DNA of 64,000 bases from Candidatus Syntropharchaeum butanivorans (lineage in GTDB: Archaea; Halobacteriota; Syntropharchaeia; Syntropharchaeales; Syntropharchaeaceae): assembly GCA_001766825.1 (NCBI GenBank), contig LYOR01000002.1, positions 61,810 through 125,809 of the forward strand. The letters run 5' to 3'. The notes beneath the pieces are model-generated. The model ran no database searches. It was not told the origin of the DNA and saw only the letters and a list, made by a program, of their open reading frames with translations. The position numbers and the translations under genes are program-made. Position 1 is the first letter of the stretch. The number at the start of each line of letters is the position of its first letter. Shown piece after piece: positions 13,755 to 22,799 of the stretch.

Positions 13755-14198
13755 ATGCACGAATGGTCAATGGCAGAAGCTGTAATAGCTGCCGTTATCG
13801 ATGAAGCAGAACGAGAGGGGCTGGATAAGGTCACGGAGATCATGGTCCGGGTAGGTGGACTTCAGCAGATGGAAAACGAGGTCTTTGAGTTTGCACTTAA
13901 TGAGCTTAAAGGTGCCTACGGTGGCTCAATCCTTGAGGATGCGAGGATTATTCTTGAGAGGGAGGATGCAGTTCTTAGATGTCGTTTCTGTGGAAATGAG
14001 TGGAAATTCTCAGGAATCAGGCTCTGTGAGGATGAGTATGAGGCGATACACTTCTGCCCGGAGGTTTCACACGCATATATCAGGTGCCCGTCATGCAAAA
14101 GTCCTGACTTCGATCTTTTGACAGGAAGGGGGGTGAGTATAGCCTGGATAAAGGGAGTGAAGGGTGAAGAAGATGGATCCGAGAGTGAGCATCCTTGA
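13755..14198 (+). CDS. hypA: Hydrogenase nickel incorporation protein HypA
   Basis: MHE N-terminus, CRFC and CPSC. Confidence 0.95.
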   Translation: MHEWSMAEAVIAAVIDEAEREGLDKVTEIMVRVGGLQQMENEVFEFALNELKGAYGGSILEDARIILEREDAVLRCRFCGNEWKFSGIRLCEDEYEAIHFCPEVSHAYIRCPSCKSPDFDLLTGRGVSIAWIKGVKGEEDGSESEHP

Positions 14199-14892
14199 TA
14201 GAAGGCTCTGTGAGGTGAGAAGGATCATTGCTGTTACAGGTGGGAAAGGCGGGGTTGGAAAGAGTCTCATTACAGCAGCACTTGGCCTGAATCTCTCAAG
14301 ATTGGGTTTCAGAGTTGCTCTTCTTGATCTCGACCTCACATCTCCTTCACTTCATATCATACTCGGTGCTGATGATATCTTTCCAGAGGAGGAGAAGGGG
14401 ATCATCCCACCGGAGGTTGCAGGTGTTAAGCTTATGAGTATCATCTACTTTACTGCGAGGAATCCATCCCCGTTGAGAGGACCAGATATATCAAATGCAA
14501 CACTCGAGCTTCTTGCAAATACAATATGGGGGGAGGTCGACTTTCTCATGGTCGATATGCCCCCCGGGGTCGGGGATGTTATGATGGATATTATACGATG
14601 GATGAGAGGTTCTGAGTTTCTCATCGTCTCAAACCCATCAAAGCTCGTGCTTGAGACGGTGATAAAGGTGATAAAGCTTCTCACCGAGCTTGATCTCCCG
14701 ATTCTCGGCGTGATAGAGAATATGAAAAGAGGTGAGAGATCTTCCTGGGAGAAGCTCTCAGGCTTCGGTATACCGTTTCTCGGTGAGTTACCCTACTTCG
14801 AGGATCTTGAGGATGCGATAGGCGACCCTGAGATGCTTCTCAGTTCCGGTTTTGGTCGCAGGCTTGGTGAGATCGCAGCGGGGCTGATCTGA
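14164..14892 (+). CDS. Mrp/MinD-family ATPase, probable ATPase-type HypB
   Basis: GGKGGVGKS, DMPPG, ENM; overlaps hypA; no GTPase-type hypB in window. Confidence 0.85.
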   Translation: MKKMDPRVSILDRRLCEVRRIIAVTGGKGGVGKSLITAALGLNLSRLGFRVALLDLDLTSPSLHIILGADDIFPEEEKGIIPPEVAGVKLMSIIYFTARNPSPLRGPDISNATLELLANTIWGEVDFLMVDMPPGVGDVMMDIIRWMRGSEFLIVSNPSKLVLETVIKVIKLLTELDLPILGVIENMKRGERSSWEKLSGFGIPFLGELPYFEDLEDAIGDPEMLLSSGFGRRLGEIAAGLI

Positions 14893-15353
14893 TGCGAGCT
14901 CTTGTCGCAGGTGTTGGGAACAGGTACATGGGGGATGATGGTTTTGGTCCGAGGGTTGTTGAGAGGCTCTCTGAACTCAATCTACCAGAGAATGTCGAGG
15001 TGAGGGACGTCGGGCTATGCGGGTTTACACTTGCGGTTGAGCTTGATCAGTACGATCTTCTCGTCCTGGTAGATGCCCTCAAGATGGGGGCGTCTGCCGG
15101 GAAGATATACTGTGAAAAAATAGAAGGGGTGATTGAGGCAGATCTATCCTCAATCACCATACATGATGCGGGAGTGAGGGAGCTTCTTGCATTTGCGAAG
15201 AAGATCGGTACACTTCCTGCGGACGTATACCTTGTGGGATGTGAGATCTCTCAGATCACCCTTCAGGAGGGGCTAAGCCCCCCGGTTGAGGCTGCGGTTG
15301 ATGATGCTGTGAGGGTTATTCTCAGGTTACTTTATCGGCAGAGCGAAGGGTAG
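14892..15353 (+). CDS. Hydrogenase maturation endopeptidase
   Basis: GVGNRYMGDDGFG, LVDA, TIHD. Confidence 0.93.
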   Translation: MRALVAGVGNRYMGDDGFGPRVVERLSELNLPENVEVRDVGLCGFTLAVELDQYDLLVLVDALKMGASAGKIYCEKIEGVIEADLSSITIHDAGVRELLAFAKKIGTLPADVYLVGCEISQITLQEGLSPPVEAAVDDAVRVILRLLYRQSEG

Positions 15354-17066
15354 TAGCTCATGCTCTTTCTTCTTATCTCCCACATATACATGGACCGCAC
15401 ATCCCAGACATGGATCAAAGCTTCTCACAACCCTCACGATATCAATCCCTTTCCACCCATCAGGTGCCCCGACCTCTGTTATCGGTGTATCGATTATCGC
15501 CTCCTCATAAGGACCTGGCCTTCCATCAGCATCCCTTCCTGATGCATTCCAGGTTGTTGGAGCCTGATACTGGTAGTTATGAATTACACCATGCTTCATC
15601 ACACACCAGTGTGATACCATCCCTCTCATAGCCTCTGTGACACCGTATCCGATCCCCTCATCAGGTTTTTTGTATTCATTCCAGACCCCGGTCTTTCCCG
15701 CCTTCATGAGCTCAAGCATGCGCGTCGCCATCTCAAGCATACAGTGGGCCGTGTATGCATGGTAGTATGCCCTTGCCCTGACCCGTTCAACAGCATTTGG
15801 CCACTCTGGTATCTTCCATTCAACCTCCATCGCTTCTGAGTACTTGAATCCTGGGACAAGTGCCTCTGGAAGCTCGAATCTGATACTATTTCCGGTTGAT
15901 GCGGGAACAAGTCCAGCCTTCGCTGTAACCCACATCCTTGCAAGTGGGCCAACCTCGATCACGTGATCCCTGCCATCCCCTTTCCAGTTCCACCATCGCG
16001 GGGATGTGACCCATGTGTAGGCATCATCCCACCTGCCATACTCAGCCGGCATTGGCTCTGTGCGCTTGTTCCATGGATGTTCCCTTGATATTCTCTTTCC
16101 TGCAGGGTCTGTCTTAAACTCTTCTTCCCAGTCATCTGAGTACCAGCCACTTCCGGTATACTCCCGTACTCCGACATTGATCTCAAGAAGGTCGGTTGTT
16201 ACAAGCTCACCGTTAAGAATCATCCCCGGAGAGACCATACGTCTTCTTCCCCATTCTGTCATCTCACCATAGACCGCAGAGTATGCATCAGGATCATCGA
16301 AGGCACCACCGGATGCAAGGTTCACAGGCCGCTTCCCGACCTCATCATAACCCTGGGCGAGAACGAAATCCAGAAGATCGTCTGTTGCTGTGACAAGCTC
16401 CTTCGTGAATGCGACATGGTGCATGAGTAGCGTCAGATACGACTCGATATCAGATGGTGAGAGATTGGCCTTTGCAACACCGCCTGGGACAAAGGAGTGG
16501 ACGTGTGGGTGCTTTGCACCGAATATTGCGGCCATGTTATGCCCCGCCTTCTGGACAAGGAGTGATCTAAGGTAGAGCTCACCCTCCATCGGGTTAAGCG
16601 CCCGCATGATATCTGCTATCGTCCTGAAACCATGTATATCACTTCTTTCAGCCCGGGTGCGCGCTGCCTCATCCCACCAGTCCGGGTTGAAGCTCTTTAC
16701 CGCATGCTCACTGTAATCAGGCCCCTCAAGGTTTATGACACCTACCTCTGCATCATAGAGCTGCTCTGCACCATGTACGAGGTTTCTTATCACGACCGCC
16801 ATCGGTGGTGGTGATGCCTGGTATGTCTGATCGACCGCAATCACCGAAGCAACAGCGTGGGGTACCGGACAGACACCACATGCACGCTGGGTTATTAGTA
16901 CGGCCTCTGATGGCTCCCTGCCACGGAGTATTATCTCAAGCCCTCTGAACATCGCACCAGCCGCATGGGCATTTTTTACCCTTCTACTCTCTGTATCGAT
17001 CGTTGCATGAATGCCAAGATGCCCCTCTATCCTTGTCACAGGCTCTATCGTGATCTCCTTCATCAT
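15327..17066 (-). CDS. [NiFe]-hydrogenase large subunit, group 1h-like
   Basis: L1 RACGVC, L2 DPCLGCAVH plus 20-aa C-terminal extension. Confidence 0.96.
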   Translation of the reverse strand: MMKEITIEPVTRIEGHLGIHATIDTESRRVKNAHAAGAMFRGLEIILRGREPSEAVLITQRACGVCPVPHAVASVIAVDQTYQASPPPMAVVIRNLVHGAEQLYDAEVGVINLEGPDYSEHAVKSFNPDWWDEAARTRAERSDIHGFRTIADIMRALNPMEGELYLRSLLVQKAGHNMAAIFGAKHPHVHSFVPGGVAKANLSPSDIESYLTLLMHHVAFTKELVTATDDLLDFVLAQGYDEVGKRPVNLASGGAFDDPDAYSAVYGEMTEWGRRRMVSPGMILNGELVTTDLLEINVGVREYTGSGWYSDDWEEEFKTDPAGKRISREHPWNKRTEPMPAEYGRWDDAYTWVTSPRWWNWKGDGRDHVIEVGPLARMWVTAKAGLVPASTGNSIRFELPEALVPGFKYSEAMEVEWKIPEWPNAVERVRARAYYHAYTAHCMLEMATRMLELMKAGKTGVWNEYKKPDEGIGYGVTEAMRGMVSHWCVMKHGVIHNYQYQAPTTWNASGRDADGRPGPYEEAIIDTPITEVGAPDGWKGIDIVRVVRSFDPCLGCAVHVYVGDKKKEHELLPFALPIK

Positions 17067-18010
17067 ATCGTCCTCCCCTTGAACCTCTCAAGCCCCATCT
17101 TGACGTGTCCGAGCGTACCCTTCAGGGTCTCTGTTACAAATGGTGTGACAGGCGCCTTTGCAAAGAACGGCGATACTGGCGGATCAGGGAAGTTAGGGTC
17201 TGCACATCCAAAGCATGGAGCTCCTGTATTTGTACAGCCCCCGTATCCATCGTTCCAGGTCTTGGAGGCGTTGCAATGGGTTATGATACCCTTACAACCG
17301 AGTGCACCGAGACACCCCGTCTCACCGAACTTATGCGCATCAACTCCCTCTGAGTAGTATCCACAGATCGGGCACATCTCATGGGCTGTGGCTGTGTTGA
17401 GGTAATCCGGTCTGTTAAGCTCATCAAGCGCAGGAGGTGGTGCAAGCCCTCTTGCTGCAAGAACCGCATGCCCCAGTGCCTGTACGATGTTATCAGGCCT
17501 TGGTGGACATCCGGGGATACAGACCAGTGGAAGACCGAGCCCACCTTTCCATCCTTCTCCGAGATAATCACGAAGTCCCTTTGCGCCGGTCGGGTTTGGC
17601 TCACCGTGTACAACACCACCATAGGAGGCACACGTTCCAACCGCAACAGCAGCAGCACACCGCTTTGAAAGCGCATCAATTACCTCATTGAGCTTCAAAA
17701 TCCTCCCCTCATACTCTCCGATCGCGCAGTAGACACCGTTGCCTGCTCTTGTCTCATCAGGGATTGCTCCTTCGAGAATGAGAACAAAAGGATCGTACTT
17801 TCCATCCATTGCATCAACAAGCACCTTTGAAGCATCTTCTCCCCACTCAAACATCAGTGTAGGGTGGTAGACGAGCTTCAGGCCGTCAAGCCCCGGTATT
17901 GCCCCTGTTATGACCTCGATCAGGGTTGGATTGCTCGCCTGCTTGAGTGAGATCGTGCATCCGGCGCAATCCTGCCCCTCAACCCAGATCAAGTTGAGTT
18001 CTTCAGTCAT
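17063..18010 (-). CDS. [NiFe]-hydrogenase small subunit, no Tat signal
   Basis: CAGC, GTCASYGG, PGCPP, HEMC, CLGALGCKG, GGCTNTGAPCFGC. Confidence 0.96.
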   Translation of the reverse strand: MTEELNLIWVEGQDCAGCTISLKQASNPTLIEVITGAIPGLDGLKLVYHPTLMFEWGEDASKVLVDAMDGKYDPFVLILEGAIPDETRAGNGVYCAIGEYEGRILKLNEVIDALSKRCAAAVAVGTCASYGGVVHGEPNPTGAKGLRDYLGEGWKGGLGLPLVCIPGCPPRPDNIVQALGHAVLAARGLAPPPALDELNRPDYLNTATAHEMCPICGYYSEGVDAHKFGETGCLGALGCKGIITHCNASKTWNDGYGGCTNTGAPCFGCADPNFPDPPVSPFFAKAPVTPFVTETLKGTLGHVKMGLERFKGRTI

Positions 18011-18125
18011 TCTTATCACTATATAATTATATTATATACCATTTTATAACTTTTTGGATCTTAGAGATATTTTACAAATCTAATTAATCTAATTAATCAT
18101 TAAAAATAATAATGAAAAAAAAAAA

Positions 18126-19211
18126 TCAGGAGAACTTAAACCTGATATGGCACGCACCCTCTGAAGAGACCATGCACGCACCAACCGGGTTTGAGGGAGA
18201 ACACACCCTCCCGAATAATCCACACTCCTCCGGTGTTATGATGCCCCTCAGGACCTCTGCACACCTGCACCCCCTCTCCTCCCTCTCCTCATACTCAAAC
18301 CCGCGAAGCTCATCCTCAAAGCGCTTTATGGCATCTTTCTCCTCATATTTCCTCTTTATCCCATACCCTGAGTCAGGGATTTCTGGAAAACCTCTCCACT
18401 CTGCGTCTTTCACATAAAAAACTTCATTCATCATTCTCTTAGCCTTCACATTACCCTCCCTCTTTATCACCCGCCTGTATGCATTCTCAACCTCATATCT
18501 ACCATCCAGAATCTGCTTCAGGAGCAGGTATATTCCAAAGAGGATATCTGCTGGTTCAAAACCTGCAACCGCCTGAGGGACCCTGTAACGCTCTGAAATC
18601 CATTCATATGGCTCGGTTCCTATAATCGTGCTAACATGCCCCGGATCTAAAAATGCATCCACCTTCACCTCACCCTGTGAGAGGAGGAAGAGGATGGCAG
18701 GTGGAATCAAACGGTGAACAGAGATGACAGAGAAGTTTTCAGGGCTGTTCAGAAGGGCCACAGCGGTCGTGGGTGCGGTTGTCTCAAACCCGACTCCAAA
18801 GTGAACAACCTCCTTTTCTTCGGCCTTTGCAATTTCAATCGCATCTGTTATACTGTAAACAACTCTTATATCCTTCCCTTCACTCTTTGCATGCTCAAAA
18901 GACCCTTTATTGCTTGGAACCCTGTACATATCACCGTATGTCGTTATTATGCATTTATCCGCAAGGAATATCGCCCGGTCAATCTCAAGCTTCGGCGTTA
19001 CACAGACAGGACAGCCCGGACCTGGGATAATCTCAACGTTATCAGGAAGAAGGGACCTCAGGCCAAACCTCTCAATCTCATGCTCATGCGTCCCGCAGAC
19101 GTGCATTATCCTCACATGATCGAGCTTCTTTGATACTTTCCTGATCTCCCCAAGTATCTTTTCAATTATTCTCGGATCATTCAGGATCCTTCTGAGCTCA
19201 TCTGGTTCCAT
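18126..19211 (-). CDS. hypD: Hydrogenase maturation protein HypD
   Basis: HVCGTHE, GPGCPVC, GFETT, MVSSEGAC. Confidence 0.97.
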   Translation of the reverse strand: MEPDELRRILNDPRIIEKILGEIRKVSKKLDHVRIMHVCGTHEHEIERFGLRSLLPDNVEIIPGPGCPVCVTPKLEIDRAIFLADKCIITTYGDMYRVPSNKGSFEHAKSEGKDIRVVYSITDAIEIAKAEEKEVVHFGVGFETTAPTTAVALLNSPENFSVISVHRLIPPAILFLLSQGEVKVDAFLDPGHVSTIIGTEPYEWISERYRVPQAVAGFEPADILFGIYLLLKQILDGRYEVENAYRRVIKREGNVKAKRMMNEVFYVKDAEWRGFPEIPDSGYGIKRKYEEKDAIKRFEDELRGFEYEEREERGCRCAEVLRGIITPEECGLFGRVCSPSNPVGACMVSSEGACHIRFKFS

Positions 19212-19413
19212 AATCCCCCCATATCTTAAAGAACTCCTCTGCTTCTTTCTCATCTATCCGCTCGATCGCAAAGCCGACATGTACAAGGACATACTCTCCC
19301 ACTTTCACATCTTCAAGAAGGTCGAGCCTCACACCCCTCACCACTCCTCCAAAGTCGGCCTCTCCAATTCTATCATTGACTTTAATGATTTTAGCAGGTA
19401 CTGCAAGACACAT
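19198..19413 (-). CDS. hypC: Hydrogenase chaperone HypC
   Basis: MCLAVPAKI start, YVLVHVGFAI. Confidence 0.96.
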   Translation of the reverse strand: MCLAVPAKIIKVNDRIGEADFGGVVRGVRLDLLEDVKVGEYVLVHVGFAIERIDEKEAEEFFKIWGDYGTR

Positions 19414-19446
19414 AAAAAGATATATGATGATTACAGATATTAAATT

Positions 19447-21759
19447 ATGCCCTATCGGATAAAGGTAAATGGAGTTGTGCAGGGTGTTGGGTTCAGGCCG
19501 TTTGTATACAGGCTTGCCCATCTCCATTCATTGAAAGGGTATGTGAAGAACCTTTCATCATCCGTTGAGATCGCTGTAAGTGGCGAAGATAGGGAGATAA
19601 AGGCTTTTGTTGAAGATCTAAAGGAAAAAGCCCCACCTCTATCGAGAATAGATGAGATATCGATCGAAAGCCTTGATGAAGATGGCTTTTCACAGTTTAA
19701 AATTGAAAAAAGCGGGGATAAGGGAGGGGGGAGGCTTGTAATACCGCCTGATATTGCACTCTGCAGTGAGTGCTTGGAAGAGCTCTTTGATGGGAAGGAT
19801 AGAAGATACCTCTATCCATTTATAAACTGTACAAACTGCGGTCAGCGGTTTTCACTGATCGGGTCCACCCCTTACGATAGGGAGAAGACATCGATGAGGG
19901 AGTTCAGGATGTGTAATATGTGTCTTGGTGAGTATCAGGATCCACTTGACAGGAGATACCATGCCCAGACAACATCATGCCCTATATGTGGCCCCTCATA
20001 CTTTCTGAGATCTGCTGATGGAAGGATACTCTCATACAATCACGATGCTATCGAGCTTGCGGCAGAACTTCTTGACAAGGGTGAGATAATCGGTATAAAG
20101 GGGTTTGGCGGGTTTCATATAGCATCAAAAACAGAGGATGAGGAGGTTTTGATGCTGAGAGATCTTCTTGGTAGAAGATCACAACCTTTTGCGATAATGG
20201 CCGAGAGTGTCGATGAGATAAGGCGGTTTGCCCACTTATCGGAAGAAGAGGAGGCATACATCACATCTTTCACCCGCCCCATCCTCATCCTGAAGAAGAA
20301 GGATCCTTTCCCACTCTCAGAGCATCTTGCACCAGGGCTTGATACGATCGGTGTGATGCTTCCCTATTCACCGCTCCATCACATCCTCTTCTCATTCTCC
20401 CGGTGCTCAAGCTTTGTCATGACCTCTGCAAACCTTCCAGATGATCCGATGGTGATAGAGAACCAGGATGCCATAGATAGACTCGGGTTTCTCAATTATC
20501 TTCTCATGAGTGATCTTGAGATTATAAACAGGATTGATGATAGTGTGATAAAGTTTGTAAGTGGAAATCCGCTCTTCATAAGAAGATCACGAGGGTATGT
20601 CCCGCTCGATCTTCCATTAAATGGAGACAGAGTGACCCTCTCACTCGGTGCAGAGCTCTCAAACACATTTACGATTACAAAGAATGGGAGGGCGGTCATC
20701 TCCCAGCATATCGGAAACACCCACAACTATGACGCACTTCTCTTCATGAGAGAGGCGATCGAGCGGATGATGACCCTCCTTGGTGTTGAGCGCTTCGAGA
20801 TGGTATACTGCGATCTTCATCCAGCATACAATACAACGGTGCTTGCACCATCATTCGGGACCAGGATCTATCAGCTCCAGCACCACTTCGCCCATGCCCT
20901 CTCGCTGCTTGGTGATAGAGGTGCGAGGACTGGGGTTGTCATCTCCTGTGATGGTATGGGATACGGGGCAGATGGGAGGATCTGGGGTGGTGAAGTTCTT
21001 TATATCGATCTTGATGAGAGGGAGTTTGAGCGTGTGGGGCATCTTGAGTATCAGAGGATGGTTGGGGGAGACCTTGCGGCATATTTCCCTCTTAGAATGG
21101 CGTTCTCAATCCTGAGAAGGTTCTATGATTCCCATGACTTCTTCATGGAGTATGCGGGGAAGTTCAGATATGGCAAGAAAGAGCTTGAGGTGATCGAGAA
21201 GGAATGGGAAAGATGTGAGATCATGACATCATCATGTGGGAGAGTCCTTGATGCGCTCGCCTCACTGCTCGGGATCTCTTATGAGAGGACGTATGAAGGA
21301 GAGCCTGCAATGAGGCTTGAGGCTGCTGCAGATGGAGATCTCATCGAGATGGGGGTTGAGATCGTGAAAGAGAGGGGGATTAAGCGATTCATACCCTGGG
21401 TTGAGTATGGTAGTGAGATTGAGGGGGAAGAGGGGGATCTTCAGGTTGTAAGAACCTCACTGCTTCTTCATGACGCGTTTGAGCTGTGGAAGAGGGGTGC
21501 GAAGAGGGGGGATCTCGTGCGCAGCTTCATCCATCATCTTACATCCTCTCTTTGCGATATAGCGATTGATGCATGCAGCAGGTTTGACGTTGAGAGCCTT
21601 GGTTTTTCCGGTGGATGTGCATACAACAGGATCATGACCCGGGTTATAAAGGAGAGGGCGAGAGAGAACAACCTCAACCTTCTTCTTCACAAAAATGTAC
21701 CTGCCGGTGACGGTGGGATATCGTTCGGGCAGGCACAGCTTTCACAGGTGATTGAATGA
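19447..21759 (+). CDS. hypF: Carbamoyltransferase HypF
   Basis: GVVQGVGFRPF, two Zn fingers, HHFAH, GDGGISFGQ. Confidence 0.97.
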   Translation: MPYRIKVNGVVQGVGFRPFVYRLAHLHSLKGYVKNLSSSVEIAVSGEDREIKAFVEDLKEKAPPLSRIDEISIESLDEDGFSQFKIEKSGDKGGGRLVIPPDIALCSECLEELFDGKDRRYLYPFINCTNCGQRFSLIGSTPYDREKTSMREFRMCNMCLGEYQDPLDRRYHAQTTSCPICGPSYFLRSADGRILSYNHDAIELAAELLDKGEIIGIKGFGGFHIASKTEDEEVLMLRDLLGRRSQPFAIMAESVDEIRRFAHLSEEEEAYITSFTRPILILKKKDPFPLSEHLAPGLDTIGVMLPYSPLHHILFSFSRCSSFVMTSANLPDDPMVIENQDAIDRLGFLNYLLMSDLEIINRIDDSVIKFVSGNPLFIRRSRGYVPLDLPLNGDRVTLSLGAELSNTFTITKNGRAVISQHIGNTHNYDALLFMREAIERMMTLLGVERFEMVYCDLHPAYNTTVLAPSFGTRIYQLQHHFAHALSLLGDRGARTGVVISCDGMGYGADGRIWGGEVLYIDLDEREFERVGHLEYQRMVGGDLAAYFPLRMAFSILRRFYDSHDFFMEYAGKFRYGKKELEVIEKEWERCEIMTSSCGRVLDALASLLGISYERTYEGEPAMRLEAAADGDLIEMGVEIVKERGIKRFIPWVEYGSEIEGEEGDLQVVRTSLLLHDAFELWKRGAKRGDLVRSFIHHLTSSLCDIAIDACSRFDVESLGFSGGCAYNRIMTRVIKERARENNLNLLLHKNVPAGDGGISFGQAQLSQVIE

Positions 21760-22799
21760 TGAAGATAAGGATGGAGGATGGTGCAGGCGGAGAAGGAATG
21801 GCGAAGTTTCTTGAGAGCTATGTCCTGAGGTTACTCTCAAAGAGGCGTGCAGGTGAGATCGGGCTTGATGAGCTTGATGATGGTGCAAGTGTCCGGGATT
21901 TCATCTTTACAGTAGATGGTCATACTGTAAGGCCATTGATCTTCCCGGGTGGGGATATCGGGCGGCTTTCTGTCTCAGGGACAGTGAACGATCTTGCTGT
22001 TATGGGAGCAAAGCCTCTTGCCCTCTCAAGCTCGATGATAATCGAAGCAGGATTTGAGGGGGAGTTGCTTGAGAGGATCCTGAGATCGATGGACGATACG
22101 ATGAGAGAGGCAGGGGTTCCCATCGTCTGTGGGGATACGAAGGTTGTTGAGGAGAAGATAGGGCTATTTGTAACAACATCCGGGATAGGTGAGGGAAACG
22201 GTGCTTTGATGAGGAATATAGAGGTGATAAGGGAGTACAGGGATTATCCTCACAGGTTTATCGTCGACAGAGGGCTTGGGGAGGGCGATCTTATCATCGT
22301 GTCAGGTACGGTTGCAGATCATGGAATGGCGATATTATCCCTCAGAAAGGGTATTGAATTTGAATCAGGGATTGAGTCTGACGTTGCACCCCTATGGGGC
22401 ATGATAGAACAGGCGATGGCGTGTGGAGGCATCACGGCGATGAAGGATCCAACAAGGGGGGGACTTTCAAACGCACTGAACGAGCTTGCAAGAAAGTCTG
22501 GCGTGGGGATAGAGATAGACGAGGAGAGGATACCTGTTAAGAGAGAGGTTCTTGCAGCATCTGAGATGCTCGGGCTTAACTTTCTTGATATGGCATCAGA
22601 GGGGAGGGTTGTGATGGGGGTTGTGAGAGAATATGCAGAAGAGGTACTCAGGGCGCTCAGGAGAAGCAGATATGGAAAGGATGCTGAGATCATAGGTGAG
22701 GTTCGCGGTGAGAGTGGGGAGGTAATCATGAGGACACGGGTAGGTGGAAGGAGGGTTATTCGCCCGCCAATCGGCGATCCTGTACCGAGGGTTTGTTAA
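21756..22799 (+). CDS. hypE: Hydrogenase maturation protein HypE
   Basis: GTVNDLAV, MKDPTRGG, C-terminal PRVC. Confidence 0.97.
   Translation: MMKIRMEDGAGGEGMAKFLESYVLRLLSKRRAGEIGLDELDDGASVRDFIFTVDGHTVRPLIFPGGDIGRLSVSGTVNDLAVMGAKPLALSSSMIIEAGFEGELLERILRSMDDTMREAGVPIVCGDTKVVEEKIGLFVTTSGIGEGNGALMRNIEVIREYRDYPHRFIVDRGLGEGDLIIVSGTVADHGMAILSLRKGIEFESGIESDVAPLWGMIEQAMACGGITAMKDPTRGGLSNALNELARKSGVGIEIDEERIPVKREVLAASEMLGLNFLDMASEGRVVMGVVREYAEEVLRALRRSRYGKDAEIIGEVRGESGEVIMRTRVGGRRVIRPPIGDPVPRVC

What the first reader, a model, noticed from the sequence alone, without database searches (positions are those of the whole stretch)
15327..18010. Group 1h (Hhy)-like [NiFe]-hydrogenase in an apparently strictly anaerobic archaeon
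Seen: the large subunit contains HGFRTIADIMRALNPMEGELY, YGEMTEWGRR..VSPG..NGELVTTDLLEINVGVR, HPWN, WVTSPRW and EWKIPEWPNAVERVRAR. The small subunit has IEVITGAIPGL and lacks a Tat leader. No cytochrome b or Isp gene is adjacent. From recalled sequences, these blocks match actinobacterial high-affinity HhyLS far better than methanogen Vht/Mvh/Frh. L1/L2 differ from Hhy (RACGVC, DPCLGCAVH). Inference: a deep-branching cytoplasmic relative of atmospheric-H2 scavenging enzymes, with an unknown electron partner.
Basis: partly seen in the sequence, partly recalled or inferred. Interest (0 to 1): 0.85.

Follow-up and report, generated by a model that had tools for sequence, protein, structure and literature searches.

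The report
Cytoplasmic archaeal [NiFe]-hydrogenase, 1g/1h-basal clade
This is the already published nickel-iron hydrogenase of a butane-oxidising Syntrophoarchaeum archaeon: a real, intact relative of the air-hydrogen-scavenging bacterial enzymes, but in a separate archaeal branch beside groups 1g and 1h, sitting in the cytoplasm with no known electron partner and no known function.

Summary
At 15327-18010 (- strand) lie an intact [NiFe]-hydrogenase large subunit (579 aa) and small subunit (315-318 aa). Every quoted motif is present, there is no Tat leader, and no cytochrome b or Isp gene is nearby. A complete maturation set surrounds the pair.

The closest solved structure by far is the group 1h enzyme of Cupriavidus necator (500 bits; next best 193; 44% identity). 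The enzyme is nevertheless not a 1h member:
- An AU test rejects grouping it with bacterial 1h alone (p=6e-5) or with 1g alone (p=0.002).
- The L1/L2 motifs differ from 1h.
- The proximal cluster has four Cys, not the 1h Asp.
- The four accessory genes found beside 64-68 of 69 bacterial 1h loci are absent.

It belongs to a robust archaeal clade (Syntropharchaeia/ANME-1/Alkanophagales plus Bathyarchaeia, Korarchaeia, Altarchaeum). That clade forms an unresolved three-way split with 1g and 1h.

This placement was already published for this lineage (Benito Merino 2022; Laso-Perez 2023), and the function is still called unresolved.

What this work adds:
- the enzyme is cytoplasmic and anchor-less, not "membrane-bound";
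- its relay is predicted to be all [4Fe-4S];
- it is under purifying selection;
- a few ANME-1 relatives have a Tat leader.

Most likely it is a soluble reversible hydrogenase coupled to a separately encoded low-potential carrier.

The parts
15327..17066 (-). [NiFe]-hydrogenase large subunit, 579 aa. Ni-Fe ligands are C63/C66 (RACGVC) and C553/C556 (DPCLGC). A 20-residue C-terminal peptide follows H559 and is removed by the maturation protease.
   Evidence: Pfam NiFeSe_Hases 3e-84. PDB best hit 5aa5_C at 5e-149. Catalytic residues are invariant across the clade. L1/L2 alignment.
17063..18010 (-). Hydrogenase small subunit, 315 aa from the ATG at 18010 (318 aa from the GTG at 18019). It has no Tat leader and no C-terminal membrane helix. 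Predicted clusters: proximal 4-Cys (C18, C21, C130, C171), medial 4-Cys (C249, C262, C269, C272), distal His+3Cys (H213, C216, C236, C242).
   Evidence: Pfam Oxidored_q6 plus NiFe_hyd_SSU_C. PDB best hit 5aa5_A at 3e-65. N-termini. Ligand alignment.
18011..18125 (-). AT-rich intergenic region with TATA-like elements (TTATAAAA, TATATAAT) just upstream of the small-subunit start. It is a likely archaeal promoter for the structural genes.
   Evidence: Read directly from the sequence. The promoter function is inferred, not tested.
14892..15353 (+). Hydrogenase maturation endopeptidase (HycI/HupD type). It is convergent with the large-subunit gene and overlaps its 3' end by 27 bp.
   Evidence: Pfam HycI 3e-19 and TIGR00072 1e-37. 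It is the only non-structural neighbour conserved in 13 of 15 related loci.
14164..14892 (+). Mrp/MinD-type P-loop ATPase next to hypA. It is probably the archaeal ATPase-type HypB (nickel insertion).
   Evidence: Pfam ParA/NUBPL 2e-49. The same hypA-ParA pair sits beside the hydrogenase in L126 and L127. The HypB role follows from established knowledge of the Thermococcus Mrp/MinD-type HypB and is inferred.
13755..14198 (+). hypA, nickel metallochaperone.
   Evidence: Pfam HypA 7e-23.
18126..19253 (-). hypD. The real start is probably at M15, about position 19211.
   Evidence: Pfam HypD 3e-141, with the match starting at residue 29.
19198..19413 (-). hypC. The real start is MCLAVP at 19413. 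The listed ORF runs upstream to 19527.
   Evidence: Pfam HupF_HypC 1e-27 matches residues 39-103 of the 109-aa ORF.
19447..21759 (+). hypF, carbamoyltransferase, divergent from hypC.
   Evidence: The ORF begins with an acylphosphatase-like N-terminus and has zinc-finger motifs. Homologous HypF genes sit beside the hydrogenase in L126 and L127.
21756..22799 (+). hypE.
   Evidence: ORF. AIRS/AIRS_C-type HypE homologues lie in the related loci.

Best explanation
This is the structural operon of a functional two-subunit [NiFe]-hydrogenase with its full maturation set. The host is a Syntrophoarchaeum-type, strictly anaerobic alkane-oxidising archaeon.

The enzyme belongs to a distinct archaeal clade. 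Clade A holds Syntropharchaeia, ANME-1 and Alkanophagales. Clade B holds Bathyarchaeia, Korarchaeia and Altarchaeum. This clade is one of three branches of a well-supported superclade whose other two branches are group 1g and group 1h. It is a member of neither.

Shown:
- The enzyme stays in the cytoplasm. It has no Tat leader and no membrane helix, and no cytochrome b or Isp gene exists in the cluster or the genome.
- The active-site ligands are complete.
- The cluster ligands predict a relay of three [4Fe-4S] clusters ending in a His-ligated distal cluster.
- It is under purifying selection.

Inferred:
- It works as a soluble heterodimer, or a dimer of heterodimers.
- It interconverts H2 with 2H+ + 2e- and exchanges electrons through the exposed distal cluster with a separately encoded low-potential carrier, most likely ferredoxin.
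- In this organism it would serve as a non-essential redox valve, or an H2-recapture route, beside the main direct electron transfer to the sulfate-reducing partner.
- The direction in vivo is not known.
For: Identity:
- Pfam and NCBIfam hits.
- The best solved relative is the 1h enzyme 5aa5: 500 and 224 bits, against 193 and 163 for the next best.
- Identity is 42-45% to bacterial 1h, 39% to the Hyperthermus 1g enzyme and 27-29% to Hyd-1 and Hyd-2.

Phylogeny:
- Large-subunit tree: superclade 100/100, clade A 100/100, A+B 100/99.
- Small-subunit tree: A+B 97/97.
- AU tests reject clade A with 1h alone (p=6e-5) and with 1g alone (p=0.0017).
- The 1g anchor is validated by its S-isp1-isp2-L gene order.

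Cytoplasmic location:
- N-termini and C-termini.
- No hydrogenase-type cytochrome b in the genome.
- Across 15 related loci only S, L, the protease and hyp genes recur (contexts).

Functional state:
- All Ni-Fe and cluster ligands are present.
- The hyp set is complete.
- dN/dS is 0.075-0.08 against the same-genus orthologue.

Anaerobe: four McrA homologues and no haem-copper or bd oxidase.

Literature:
- The enzyme is reported as highly expressed in Ca. Syntrophoarchaeum.
- H2 addition and production tests do not support H2 as the syntrophic carrier, and the function is called unresolved (PMC9539880, PMC9894754, PMC10322722).
Against: - No partner was identified, so ferredoxin is a default guess rather than a result.
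- No biochemical data exist for any member of clades A or B.
- The nearest characterised relatives (1h, 1g) are uptake enzymes that feed respiratory chains. This favours an uptake/quinone reading.
- One clade-B locus lies next to an 11-subunit complex-I-like operon.
- Published papers call the enzyme 'membrane-bound' (PMC9539880, PMC10322722), although without stated evidence.
- The genome is only 79% complete, so absences are provisional.
Confidence: 0.55

Rival explanations
1. Cytoplasmic-face uptake hydrogenase. It attaches peripherally to the membrane, for example through the conserved basic amphipathic C-terminal tail of the small subunit, and passes electrons from H2 to the quinone pool or to the Fqo/Nuo-like complex, as the 1h and 2a enzymes do in bacteria.
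For: - The closest characterised relatives (1h) are Tat-less uptake enzymes linked to respiratory chains (established knowledge; similarity).
- The small subunit ends in a conserved basic amphipathic stretch (...LKGTLGHVKMGLERFKGRTI; R-L-K-R-R-K-I in relatives). It aligns with the start of the 1h tail.
- A clade-B enzyme is divergently adjacent to an 11-subunit complex-I-like operon.
- The literature calls the enzyme 'membrane-bound' (PMC10322722, PMC9539880).
Against: - There is no transmembrane segment and no dedicated quinone-site subunit.
- The complex-I adjacency is seen in one locus only and is not conserved.
- An alkane oxidiser must dispose of electrons, so net H2 uptake has no obvious role.
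- Added H2 had no physiological effect in related cultures (PMC9539880, PMC10322722).
Confidence: 0.2
2. The heterodimer docks onto a separately encoded flavin/FeS module (HdrA-MvhD-like, FrhB-like). It then links H2 to F420, or to heterodisulfide/ferredoxin bifurcation, as group 3 enzymes do.
For: - The genome is reported to encode HdrABC-FrhB complexes (PMC11543930).
- A relative in Korarchaeia was proposed to reduce F420 (PMC10667645).
- One clade-A locus lies beside an Mvh-like cluster that includes MvhD.
Against: - No FrhB, MvhD or Hdr gene is conserved next to the enzyme.
- The small subunit is a full-length group-1 type with a His-ligated distal cluster, not the short group-3 type.
- The weak TIGR03295 (FrhA) hit covers only the shared N-terminus.
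Confidence: 0.12
3. A true group 1h (Hhy-type) enzyme: a high-affinity, O2-insensitive scavenger of trace H2. This is the stronger form of the first reader's reading.
For: - The best PDB hit is the 1h enzyme.
- It has no Tat leader.
- The medial cluster has four Cys, as in 1h.
- HydDB labels a Korarchaeia relative 1h (PMC10667645).
Against: - The AU test rejects clade A with bacterial 1h alone (p=6e-5).
- L1 is CGVCPVPH and L2 is CLGCAVH, not CGICGDNH and CLPCGVH.
- The proximal cluster has Cys where 1h has Asp.
- The four accessory genes present in 64-68 of 69 bacterial 1h loci are absent from all 15 archaeal loci and from the genome.
- The host has no terminal oxidase.
Confidence: 0.03
4. 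An evolutionary remnant with no current role, as suggested for the poorly expressed ANME-1c copy.
For: - Distribution within the class is patchy (26 of 79 species genomes; 21 of 66 in the ANME-1 family).
- Expression is reported as low in ANME-1c, with no H2 phenotype (PMC9539880).
Against: - Both genes and all seven maturation genes are intact.
- All ligands are conserved.
- dN/dS is about 0.08.
- The enzyme is reported as highly expressed in Ca. Syntrophoarchaeum (PMC9539880, citing Laso-Perez 2016).
Confidence: 0.05

Closest known systems
Group 1h [NiFe]-hydrogenase: 'actinobacterial-type' AH (HofKG) of Cupriavidus necator H16, PDB 5aa5; Hhy of Mycobacterium smegmatis
   Same: - Highest sequence similarity of any solved enzyme: 44% identity, 500 bits for the large subunit and 224 bits for the small subunit.
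- No Tat leader and no membrane helix.
- Four-Cys medial cluster, so an all-[4Fe-4S] relay is predicted.
- Shared RSFDPC motif.
- Short amphipathic small-subunit tail.
   Different: - Separate clade (AU p=6e-5).
- L1 is CGVCPVPH rather than CGICGDNH, and L2 is CLGCAVH rather than CLPCGVH.
- The proximal cluster is 4-Cys rather than 3 Cys + Asp.
- It lacks the NifU-like, DUF5947, DUF6084 and 476-aa accessory genes.
- The host is a strict anaerobe without oxidases.
- The small-subunit tail is about 20 residues shorter.
Group 1g [NiFe]-hydrogenase (Crenarchaeota-type, for example Hyperthermus butylicus, Pyrodictium, Acidianus Hca)
   Same: - Same superclade (100/100).
- 39% identity.
- Archaeal and anaerobic.
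- HydDB's classifier assigns the ANME-1c orthologue to 1g (PMC9539880).
   Different: 1g enzymes have a Tat leader, a C-terminal membrane anchor, Isp1/Isp2 partner genes, Pro in place of the fourth medial Cys ([3Fe-4S]) and the L1 motif CGVCGASH. The window enzyme has none of these. The AU test rejects clade A with 1g alone (p=0.0017).
The published Syntrophoarchaeia/ANME-1/Alkanophagales hydrogenase clade (Laso-Perez 2016, 2023; Benito Merino 2022; Zehnle 2023)
   Same: This is that enzyme. It is 83% identical to a Syntropharchaeales MAG protein, 73-74% to ANME-1c and 69% to Alkanophagales. The placement next to 1g and 1h is the same, as is the patchy distribution in ANME-1.
   Different: The papers describe it as 'membrane-bound'. 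The sequences show a Tat-less, anchor-less, partner-less cytoplasmic enzyme in nearly all members. Two nested ANME-1 sequences carry a Tat leader.
[NiFeSe]/group 1a periplasmic hydrogenases (for example Desulfomicrobium baculatum, PDB 1cc1)
   Same: They are the second-best small-subunit match (163 bits). They share the all-[4Fe-4S] relay with a four-Cys medial cluster and an L1 of the RACGVC type.
   Different: They are periplasmic (Tat-exported), carry selenocysteine at the active site, use cytochrome c3 as partner, and share only about 30% identity in the large subunit.

Membership tests
[NiFe]-hydrogenase, group 1 architecture | The large subunit carries two CxxC pairs (L1, L2) and a C-terminal peptide removed by a dedicated endopeptidase. 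| tested here: met
   C63/C66 and C553/C556 are present, a 20-residue tail follows H559, and a HycI-type protease gene is adjacent.
[NiFe]-hydrogenase, group 1 architecture | Long small subunit with three FeS clusters, including a His-ligated distal cluster (NiFe_hyd_SSU_C domain). | tested here: met
   Pfam Oxidored_q6 plus NiFe_hyd_SSU_C. Ligands are C18/C21/C130/C171, C249/C262/C269/C272 and H213/C216/C236/C242.
Group 1h (Hhy/AH) | Placement inside the 1h clade. | tested here: not met
   Bacterial 1h is a 100/100 clade that excludes the query. Holding clade A with it costs 91 lnL units, AU p=6e-5.
Group 1h (Hhy/AH) | 1h L1/L2 signatures (TSRICGICGDNH; SFDPCLPCGVH). | tested here: not met
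   The query has TQRACGVCPVPH and SFDPCLGCAVH. All sampled 1h sequences carry the 1h form.
Group 1h (Hhy/AH) | Proximal [4Fe-4S] cluster ligated by three Cys and one Asp (GCDGD). | tested here: not met
   The query has DCAGC, that is Cys at position 21. The residue varies between Cys and Asp within clades A and B.
Group 1h (Hhy/AH) | No Tat signal, and a four-Cys medial cluster. | tested here: met
Group 1h (Hhy/AH) | Conserved accessory genes in the cluster (NifU-like, DUF5947, DUF6084, 476-aa protein). | tested here: not met
   They are present in 64-68 of 69 bacterial 1h loci and in 0 of 15 archaeal clade A/B/C loci. The two DUF proteins were not found in the genome, and the NifU-like query gave only weak generic matches at E about 0.005.
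Group 1h (Hhy/AH) | High affinity for H2, O2 insensitivity, and coupling to aerobic respiration. | not testable with these tools
   These are kinetic properties. The genome has no haem-copper or bd oxidase, so coupling to O2 respiration is not possible.
Group 1g (Crenarchaeota-type) | Placement inside the 1g clade. | tested here: not met
   1g (Hyperthermus, Pyrodictium and Korarchaeia relatives) is a 100/100 clade that excludes the query. Clade A with 1g alone is rejected at AU p=0.0017. A sister relation between the wider archaeal clade (A+B+C) and 1g is not rejected (p=0.43).
Group 1g (Crenarchaeota-type) | Tat export, a membrane anchor and Isp1/Isp2 partner genes. | tested here: not met
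   The query has no Tat leader, no membrane helix and no isp genes. The Hyperthermus anchor has S-isp1-isp2-L.
Archaeal clade at the base of 1g/1h (Syntrophoarchaeia-type plus Bathyarchaeia/Korarchaeia-type) | Monophyly with published Syntrophoarchaeales/ANME-1/Alkanophagales sequences, and the clade L1 signature CGVCP[VT]PH. | tested here: met
   Clade A is 100/100 and A+B is 100/99 in the large-subunit tree and 97/97 in the small-subunit tree. The signature is present in clades A, B and C only.
Groups 1j/1k (Vht-type) and group 3 (Frh/Mvh) | Closest similarity to, or placement with, these groups. | tested here: inconclusive
   Group 3 is excluded: Frh and Mvh give only 65-80 bits over the N-terminus. 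No named 1j or 1k reference could be fetched. Published trees with HydDB references place the clade next to 1g and 1h (PMC9539880, PMC9894754).

The most novel reading that the evidence does not exclude
Clades A+B form an unnamed and never-characterised subgroup of group 1 [NiFe]-hydrogenases. It would be ancestrally cytoplasmic and partner-less, with an all-[4Fe-4S] relay, and widespread in strictly anaerobic archaea (Syntropharchaeia, Bathyarchaeia, Korarchaeia, Altarchaeota).

It would be the anaerobic counterpart, and possibly close to the ancestral state, of the O2-tolerant high-affinity 1h enzymes. It might share their high H2 affinity, which would let sediment archaea exchange H2 at nanomolar levels inside the cell.

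Its topology is evolutionarily labile. A Tat leader, with adjacent tatA/tatC and a TorD-like gene, appears secondarily in one ANME-1 sublineage.
Probability: 0.3. Interest if true: 0.55.

Novelty: already known. Interest (0 to 1): 0.33.

Why it matters
Hydrogenases are rare in methane- and alkane-oxidising archaea. Whether they signal hidden hydrogen exchange or facultative methanogenesis is an open question in that field, and papers from 2016 to 2023 explicitly leave the role of this enzyme unresolved.

Showing that the Syntrophoarchaeum enzyme faces the cytoplasm, has no membrane or cytochrome partner and is under purifying selection narrows the options. It cannot be a classical periplasmic uptake hydrogenase for interspecies H2 transfer.

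The enzyme also lies in a large archaeal clade beside the atmospheric-H2 oxidisers. A biochemical study of it would show which properties of the 1h enzymes (affinity, O2 tolerance) are ancestral and which are later adaptations.

None of this changes the basic classification already in the literature.

Tried and rejected
- HydDB itself is not available. I built anchors instead: pHG1 of C. necator (1h, 1d, 2b), E. coli Hyd-1 and Hyd-2, and named Hyperthermus and Pyrodictium proteins. The 1g anchor was validated by gene order.
- No named 1j or 1k (Vht) reference could be fetched, so that comparison rests on published trees.
- The search for a conserved electron-partner gene covered 15 related loci with up to 9 kb flanks. 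Only S, L, the protease and hyp genes recur. The complex-I-like operon and the Mvh-like cluster are each seen once.
- The relation of the archaeal clade to 1h versus 1g could not be resolved (support 64/12; AU p=0.43). Clade C moves between the large- and small-subunit trees.
- The phylum-level search from a Korarchaeia genome reached only 43 genomes, so it gave no Sulfolobales 1g sequences.
- Structure prediction was not run. At 44% identity to a solved structure it would only confirm the fold.
- Considered and rejected: group 3 (Frh/Mvh) membership, a pseudogene or remnant, a selenoprotein, and an upstream longer start that hides a Tat leader (the frame is closed by a stop just upstream).


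Full report
**Observation**

- Pfam assigns NiFeSe_Hases (3e-84) to the long ORF and Oxidored_q6 plus NiFe_hyd_SSU_C to the short one.
- The small-subunit frame is closed by a stop codon four codons upstream of its first possible start codon. Only 17 residues precede the first cluster cysteine (MIRMTEELNLIWVEGQDCAGC), so a twin-arginine leader is physically impossible.
- The surrounding genes are hypA, an Mrp/MinD-type ATPase (the archaeal ATPase-type HypB, by established knowledge), a HycI-type endopeptidase, hypD, hypC, hypF and hypE.
- No cytochrome b or Isp gene lies nearby, and the Ni_hydr_CYTB family finds nothing in the whole genome, which is 79% complete.

**Organism**

- The genome (1.46 Mb, 16 contigs) has this one complete [NiFe] large subunit and four McrA homologues.
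- It has no haem-copper or bd oxidase.
- Its best protein relatives are named Syntropharchaeales, ANME-1c (Methanospirareceae) and Alkanophagales.
- Earlier notes of this scan name the genome as Candidatus Syntrophoarchaeum butanivorans. The four mcrA-like genes fit that.

'Strictly anaerobic archaeon' is therefore right.

**Similarity**

- Against all PDB chains, the best match by a wide margin is 5aa5, the group 1h 'actinobacterial-type' hydrogenase HofKG of Cupriavidus necator. The large subunit scores 500 bits against 193 for the next best. The small subunit scores 224 against 163.
- Identity is 42-45% to bacterial 1h enzymes (Streptomyces, Mycobacterium, Cupriavidus, Methylocystis).
- Identity is 39% to the Hyperthermus butylicus enzyme and 27-29% to E. 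coli Hyd-1 and Hyd-2, Cupriavidus MBH and Sulfurovum.
- Frh and Mvh match only over the N-terminal 100 residues.

**Phylogeny**

I assembled large subunits from several sources:
- the window;
- named and unnamed relatives;
- 1h, 1d and 2b anchors from pHG1, and 1c and 1d anchors from E. coli;
- two Pyrodictiaceae proteins. The Hyperthermus locus has the small-isp1-isp2-large order that defines group 1g (definition in PMC11018855).

A careful IQ-TREE run (LG+C20, 59 rows) gives a 100/100 superclade made of three branches:
- (i) 1g (100/100);
- (ii) bacterial 1h (100/100) plus six unnamed representatives (99/98);
- (iii) an archaeal clade (100/98).

The archaeal clade contains clade C (Tat-bearing Korarchaeia-type), clade B (Bathyarchaeia, Korarchaeia, Altarchaeum; 95/94) and clade A (100/100). 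Clade A holds the window's enzyme together with Syntropharchaeales, ANME-1, Alkanophagales and a Methanocellales-labelled MAG.

The order of the three branches is unresolved. The archaeal clade joins the 1h side with only 64/12 support, and forcing it to join 1g is not rejected (AU p=0.43). In contrast, holding clade A with bacterial 1h alone is rejected (delta lnL 91, p=6e-5), and so is holding it with 1g alone (delta lnL 71, p=0.0017).

An independent small-subunit tree recovers the superclade (100/99), 1h (100/100) and A+B (97/97). Clade C moves to the 1g side.

So the enzyme is neither 1g nor 1h. It belongs to a third, archaeal lineage.

**Features that separate it from 1h and 1g**

- **L1/L2 motifs.** L1 is TQRACGVCPVPH and L2 is SFDPCLGCAVH. 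The CGVCP[VT]PH form is shared by clades A, B and C. 1h has CGICGDNH and CLPCGVH, and 1g has CGVCGASH.
- **Proximal cluster.** In the small subunit it has four Cys (C18, C21, C130, C171). 1h has Asp at the second position and 1g has Asn or Asp. This position flips between Cys and Asp inside clades A and B, so it is not a clean marker.
- **Medial cluster.** It has four Cys (C249, C262, C269, C272), as in 1h and the [NiFeSe] enzymes. This predicts a [4Fe-4S] cluster. 1g, Hyd-1 and Hyd-2 have Pro at 262, which gives [3Fe-4S].
- **Distal cluster.** It is His+3Cys in all groups.
- **Membrane helix.** Clades A and B and 1h lack a C-terminal membrane helix. Clade C, 1g, Hyd-1 and Hyd-2 have one.
- **Accessory genes.** The four genes that follow the C. 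necator 1h genes (NifU-like, DUF5947, DUF6084, a 476-aa protein) are found in 64-68 of 69 bacterial 1h loci. They are found in none of 15 archaeal clade A/B/C loci, including the window. DUF5947 and DUF6084 are not detected anywhere in the genome, and the NifU-like query gave only weak generic matches (E about 0.005).

**Topology and partners across the clade**

- Nearly all clade-A sequences and all clade-B sequences lack a Tat leader.
- Two clade-A ANME-1 sequences are exceptions: L018/L139 from an African mine MAG, and L126. Both have a clear RR leader. In L018 a TorD-like gene, tatA and two tatC genes lie beside the operon.
- These two form a nested 100/100 pair in the small-subunit tree. 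The leader therefore looks like a secondary acquisition.
- Clustering all ORFs from 15 loci with up to 9 kb flanks finds only the small subunit, the large subunit, the protease (13 loci) and hyp genes as recurrent neighbours.
- A complex-I-like operon (L128) and an Mvh-like cluster (L127) each occur once.

The conserved unit is small subunit, large subunit and protease, with no dedicated electron-transfer subunit.

**Functional state**

- All Ni-Fe ligands, the proton-path Glu/His of the N-terminal RIEGH motif and the conserved Arg are invariant across the clade.
- The maturation set is complete.
- dN/dS against the same-genus orthologue is 0.075 for the large subunit and 0.08 for the small subunit. 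dS is near saturation, so this shows purifying selection only qualitatively.
- An AT-rich stretch with TATA-like boxes precedes the small-subunit start.
- In the class, 26 of 79 species genomes carry the enzyme: both other genomes of the window's own family, both genomes of the family holding the 69-70%-identical orthologues, and 21 of 66 genomes of the largest family, which I read as Alkanophagales and ANME-1 respectively.
- That pattern matches the published picture of vertical inheritance with repeated loss (PMC9894754).

**What is already published**

- Benito Merino et al. [quoted passage not shown] HydDB calls the enzyme 1g. It is highly expressed in Ca. Syntrophoarchaeum during butane oxidation, and its function is unresolved.
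- Laso-Perez et al. 2023 (PMC9894754): the same clade, placed next to 1g and 1h.
- Zehnle et al. 2023 (PMC10322722): Alkanophaga 'membrane-bound [NiFe]-hydrogenases', with H2 addition having no effect.
- Leung et al. 2024 (PMC11018855): at least three undescribed archaeal group 1 clades spanning Altarchaeota, Halobacteriota and Thermoproteota.
- Vulcano et al. 2023 (PMC10667645): HydDB labels a Korarchaeia relative 1h.
- The 2024 metabolic model of Ca. S. butanivorans does not assign the enzyme a role (PMC11543930).

The finding is therefore not new. HydDB's labels switch between 1g and 1h because the clade is neither.

**Mechanism**

Shown:
- a cytoplasmic, anchor-less heterodimer;
- complete active-site ligands;
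- ligands for three [4Fe-4S] clusters, ending in a His-ligated distal cluster.

Inferred:
- The enzyme exchanges electrons with a separately encoded carrier. A low-potential all-[4Fe-4S] relay and a cytoplasm rich in reduced ferredoxin (from CODH/ACS and Fwd during alkane oxidation; established pathway knowledge) make ferredoxin the most likely partner.
- The likely role is a reversible, non-essential H2 valve or H2 recapture route. This agrees with published experiments that exclude H2 as the main syntrophic carrier.

I put about 0.55 on this package. Most of the uncertainty is in the partner and the direction.

The main rival, at about 0.2, is peripheral attachment to the membrane with quinone or complex-I-like coupling, by analogy with 1h and 2a and with the conserved basic amphipathic tail. 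Docking to Hdr/FrhB-type modules gets about 0.12. A remnant gets about 0.05 and a true 1h scavenger about 0.03.

**Limits**

- No 1j, 1k, 1l or 1m named references were available.
- The three-way split is unresolved.
- The genome is incomplete.

**Verdict**

This is a real and correctly described gene pair. The enzyme is already in the literature. The modest additions here are its cytoplasmic topology, the predicted cluster composition, the gene-cluster distinction from 1h, purifying selection, and the nested Tat-bearing variants.

Noticed in passing
L018 1086-7155 (same contig as L139); L126 7890-8999: Two ANME-1 members of the window's clade carry a twin-arginine leader on the small subunit. 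In L018 the operon is flanked by a TorD-like chaperone gene, tatA and two tatC genes. They form a nested pair in the small-subunit tree, so export looks secondarily acquired inside an otherwise cytoplasmic clade.
   Followed up: partly
L154 (G123:C4:183474-187094), same genus as the window: A 95%-complete sister genome lacks a close orthologue of the window's enzyme. It has instead a different group 1 hydrogenase. Its small subunit has a Tat leader, a Thr/Pro-rich linker and a PGF-CTERM-like end (APGFGAAAAVGAG...), which suggests archaeosortase-dependent surface anchoring of a hydrogenase.
   Followed up: no
L009 (DATKXZ010000057.1) and L018 (DYFG01000018.1): Contigs carrying ANME-1-type hydrogenase operons (73-74% identical to the window's) are deposited in MAGs labelled 'Desulfobacteria bacterium' and 'Nitrosotalea sp.'. 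This is probably mis-binning or mislabelling.
   Followed up: no
window 15327-15353: The large-subunit gene and the convergent maturation-protease gene overlap by 27 bp at their 3' ends. The same 27-bp overlap occurs in the related locus L127 (10720-10746), so the arrangement is conserved.
   Followed up: partly
P0006 (ANME-1c large subunit), C-terminus: The residue after DPCLGCAV is Ser instead of the His (or Arg) that normally marks the protease cleavage site (CAVSVH). This may bear on the reported low activity and expression of the ANME-1c enzyme.
   Followed up: no
L135, L136, L138, L141-L148 (ANME-1 genus g6), small-subunit C-termini: These small subunits carry an extra, roughly 30-residue, strongly acidic helical extension (…PEFIEELDKQMEEEKDKGRKI) before the conserved basic end. 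The window's enzyme lacks it.
   Followed up: no
G001 and 42 related genomes; loci L092-L118: Korarchaeia-type genomes carry up to three paralogous lineages of this superclade: cytoplasmic clade B (54-57% identity), Tat-exported clade C (46-48%) and a Tat-exported 1g-like clade (40-46%). 39 of the 43 genomes have at least one match.
   Followed up: partly
L128 1-7512: In one clade-B metagenome contig the hydrogenase is divergently adjacent to an 11-subunit complex-I-like operon (NuoA, B, C, D, H, I, J, K, L, M, N, without NuoEFG). This was seen once only.
   Followed up: partly
P0126 (unnamed representative on the 1h side of the tree): Its L1 region reads SRTRGLSSGAH, apparently without the two nickel-binding cysteines. 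It may be a degenerate, non-catalytic hydrogenase-like protein, or the result of a misalignment.
   Followed up: no
window 19198-19527: The longest hypC frame is 109 aa, but the family match and the obligatory N-terminal MCLAVP motif start at residue 39 (position 19413). That leaves only 33 bp between the divergent hypC and hypF starts.
   Followed up: partly
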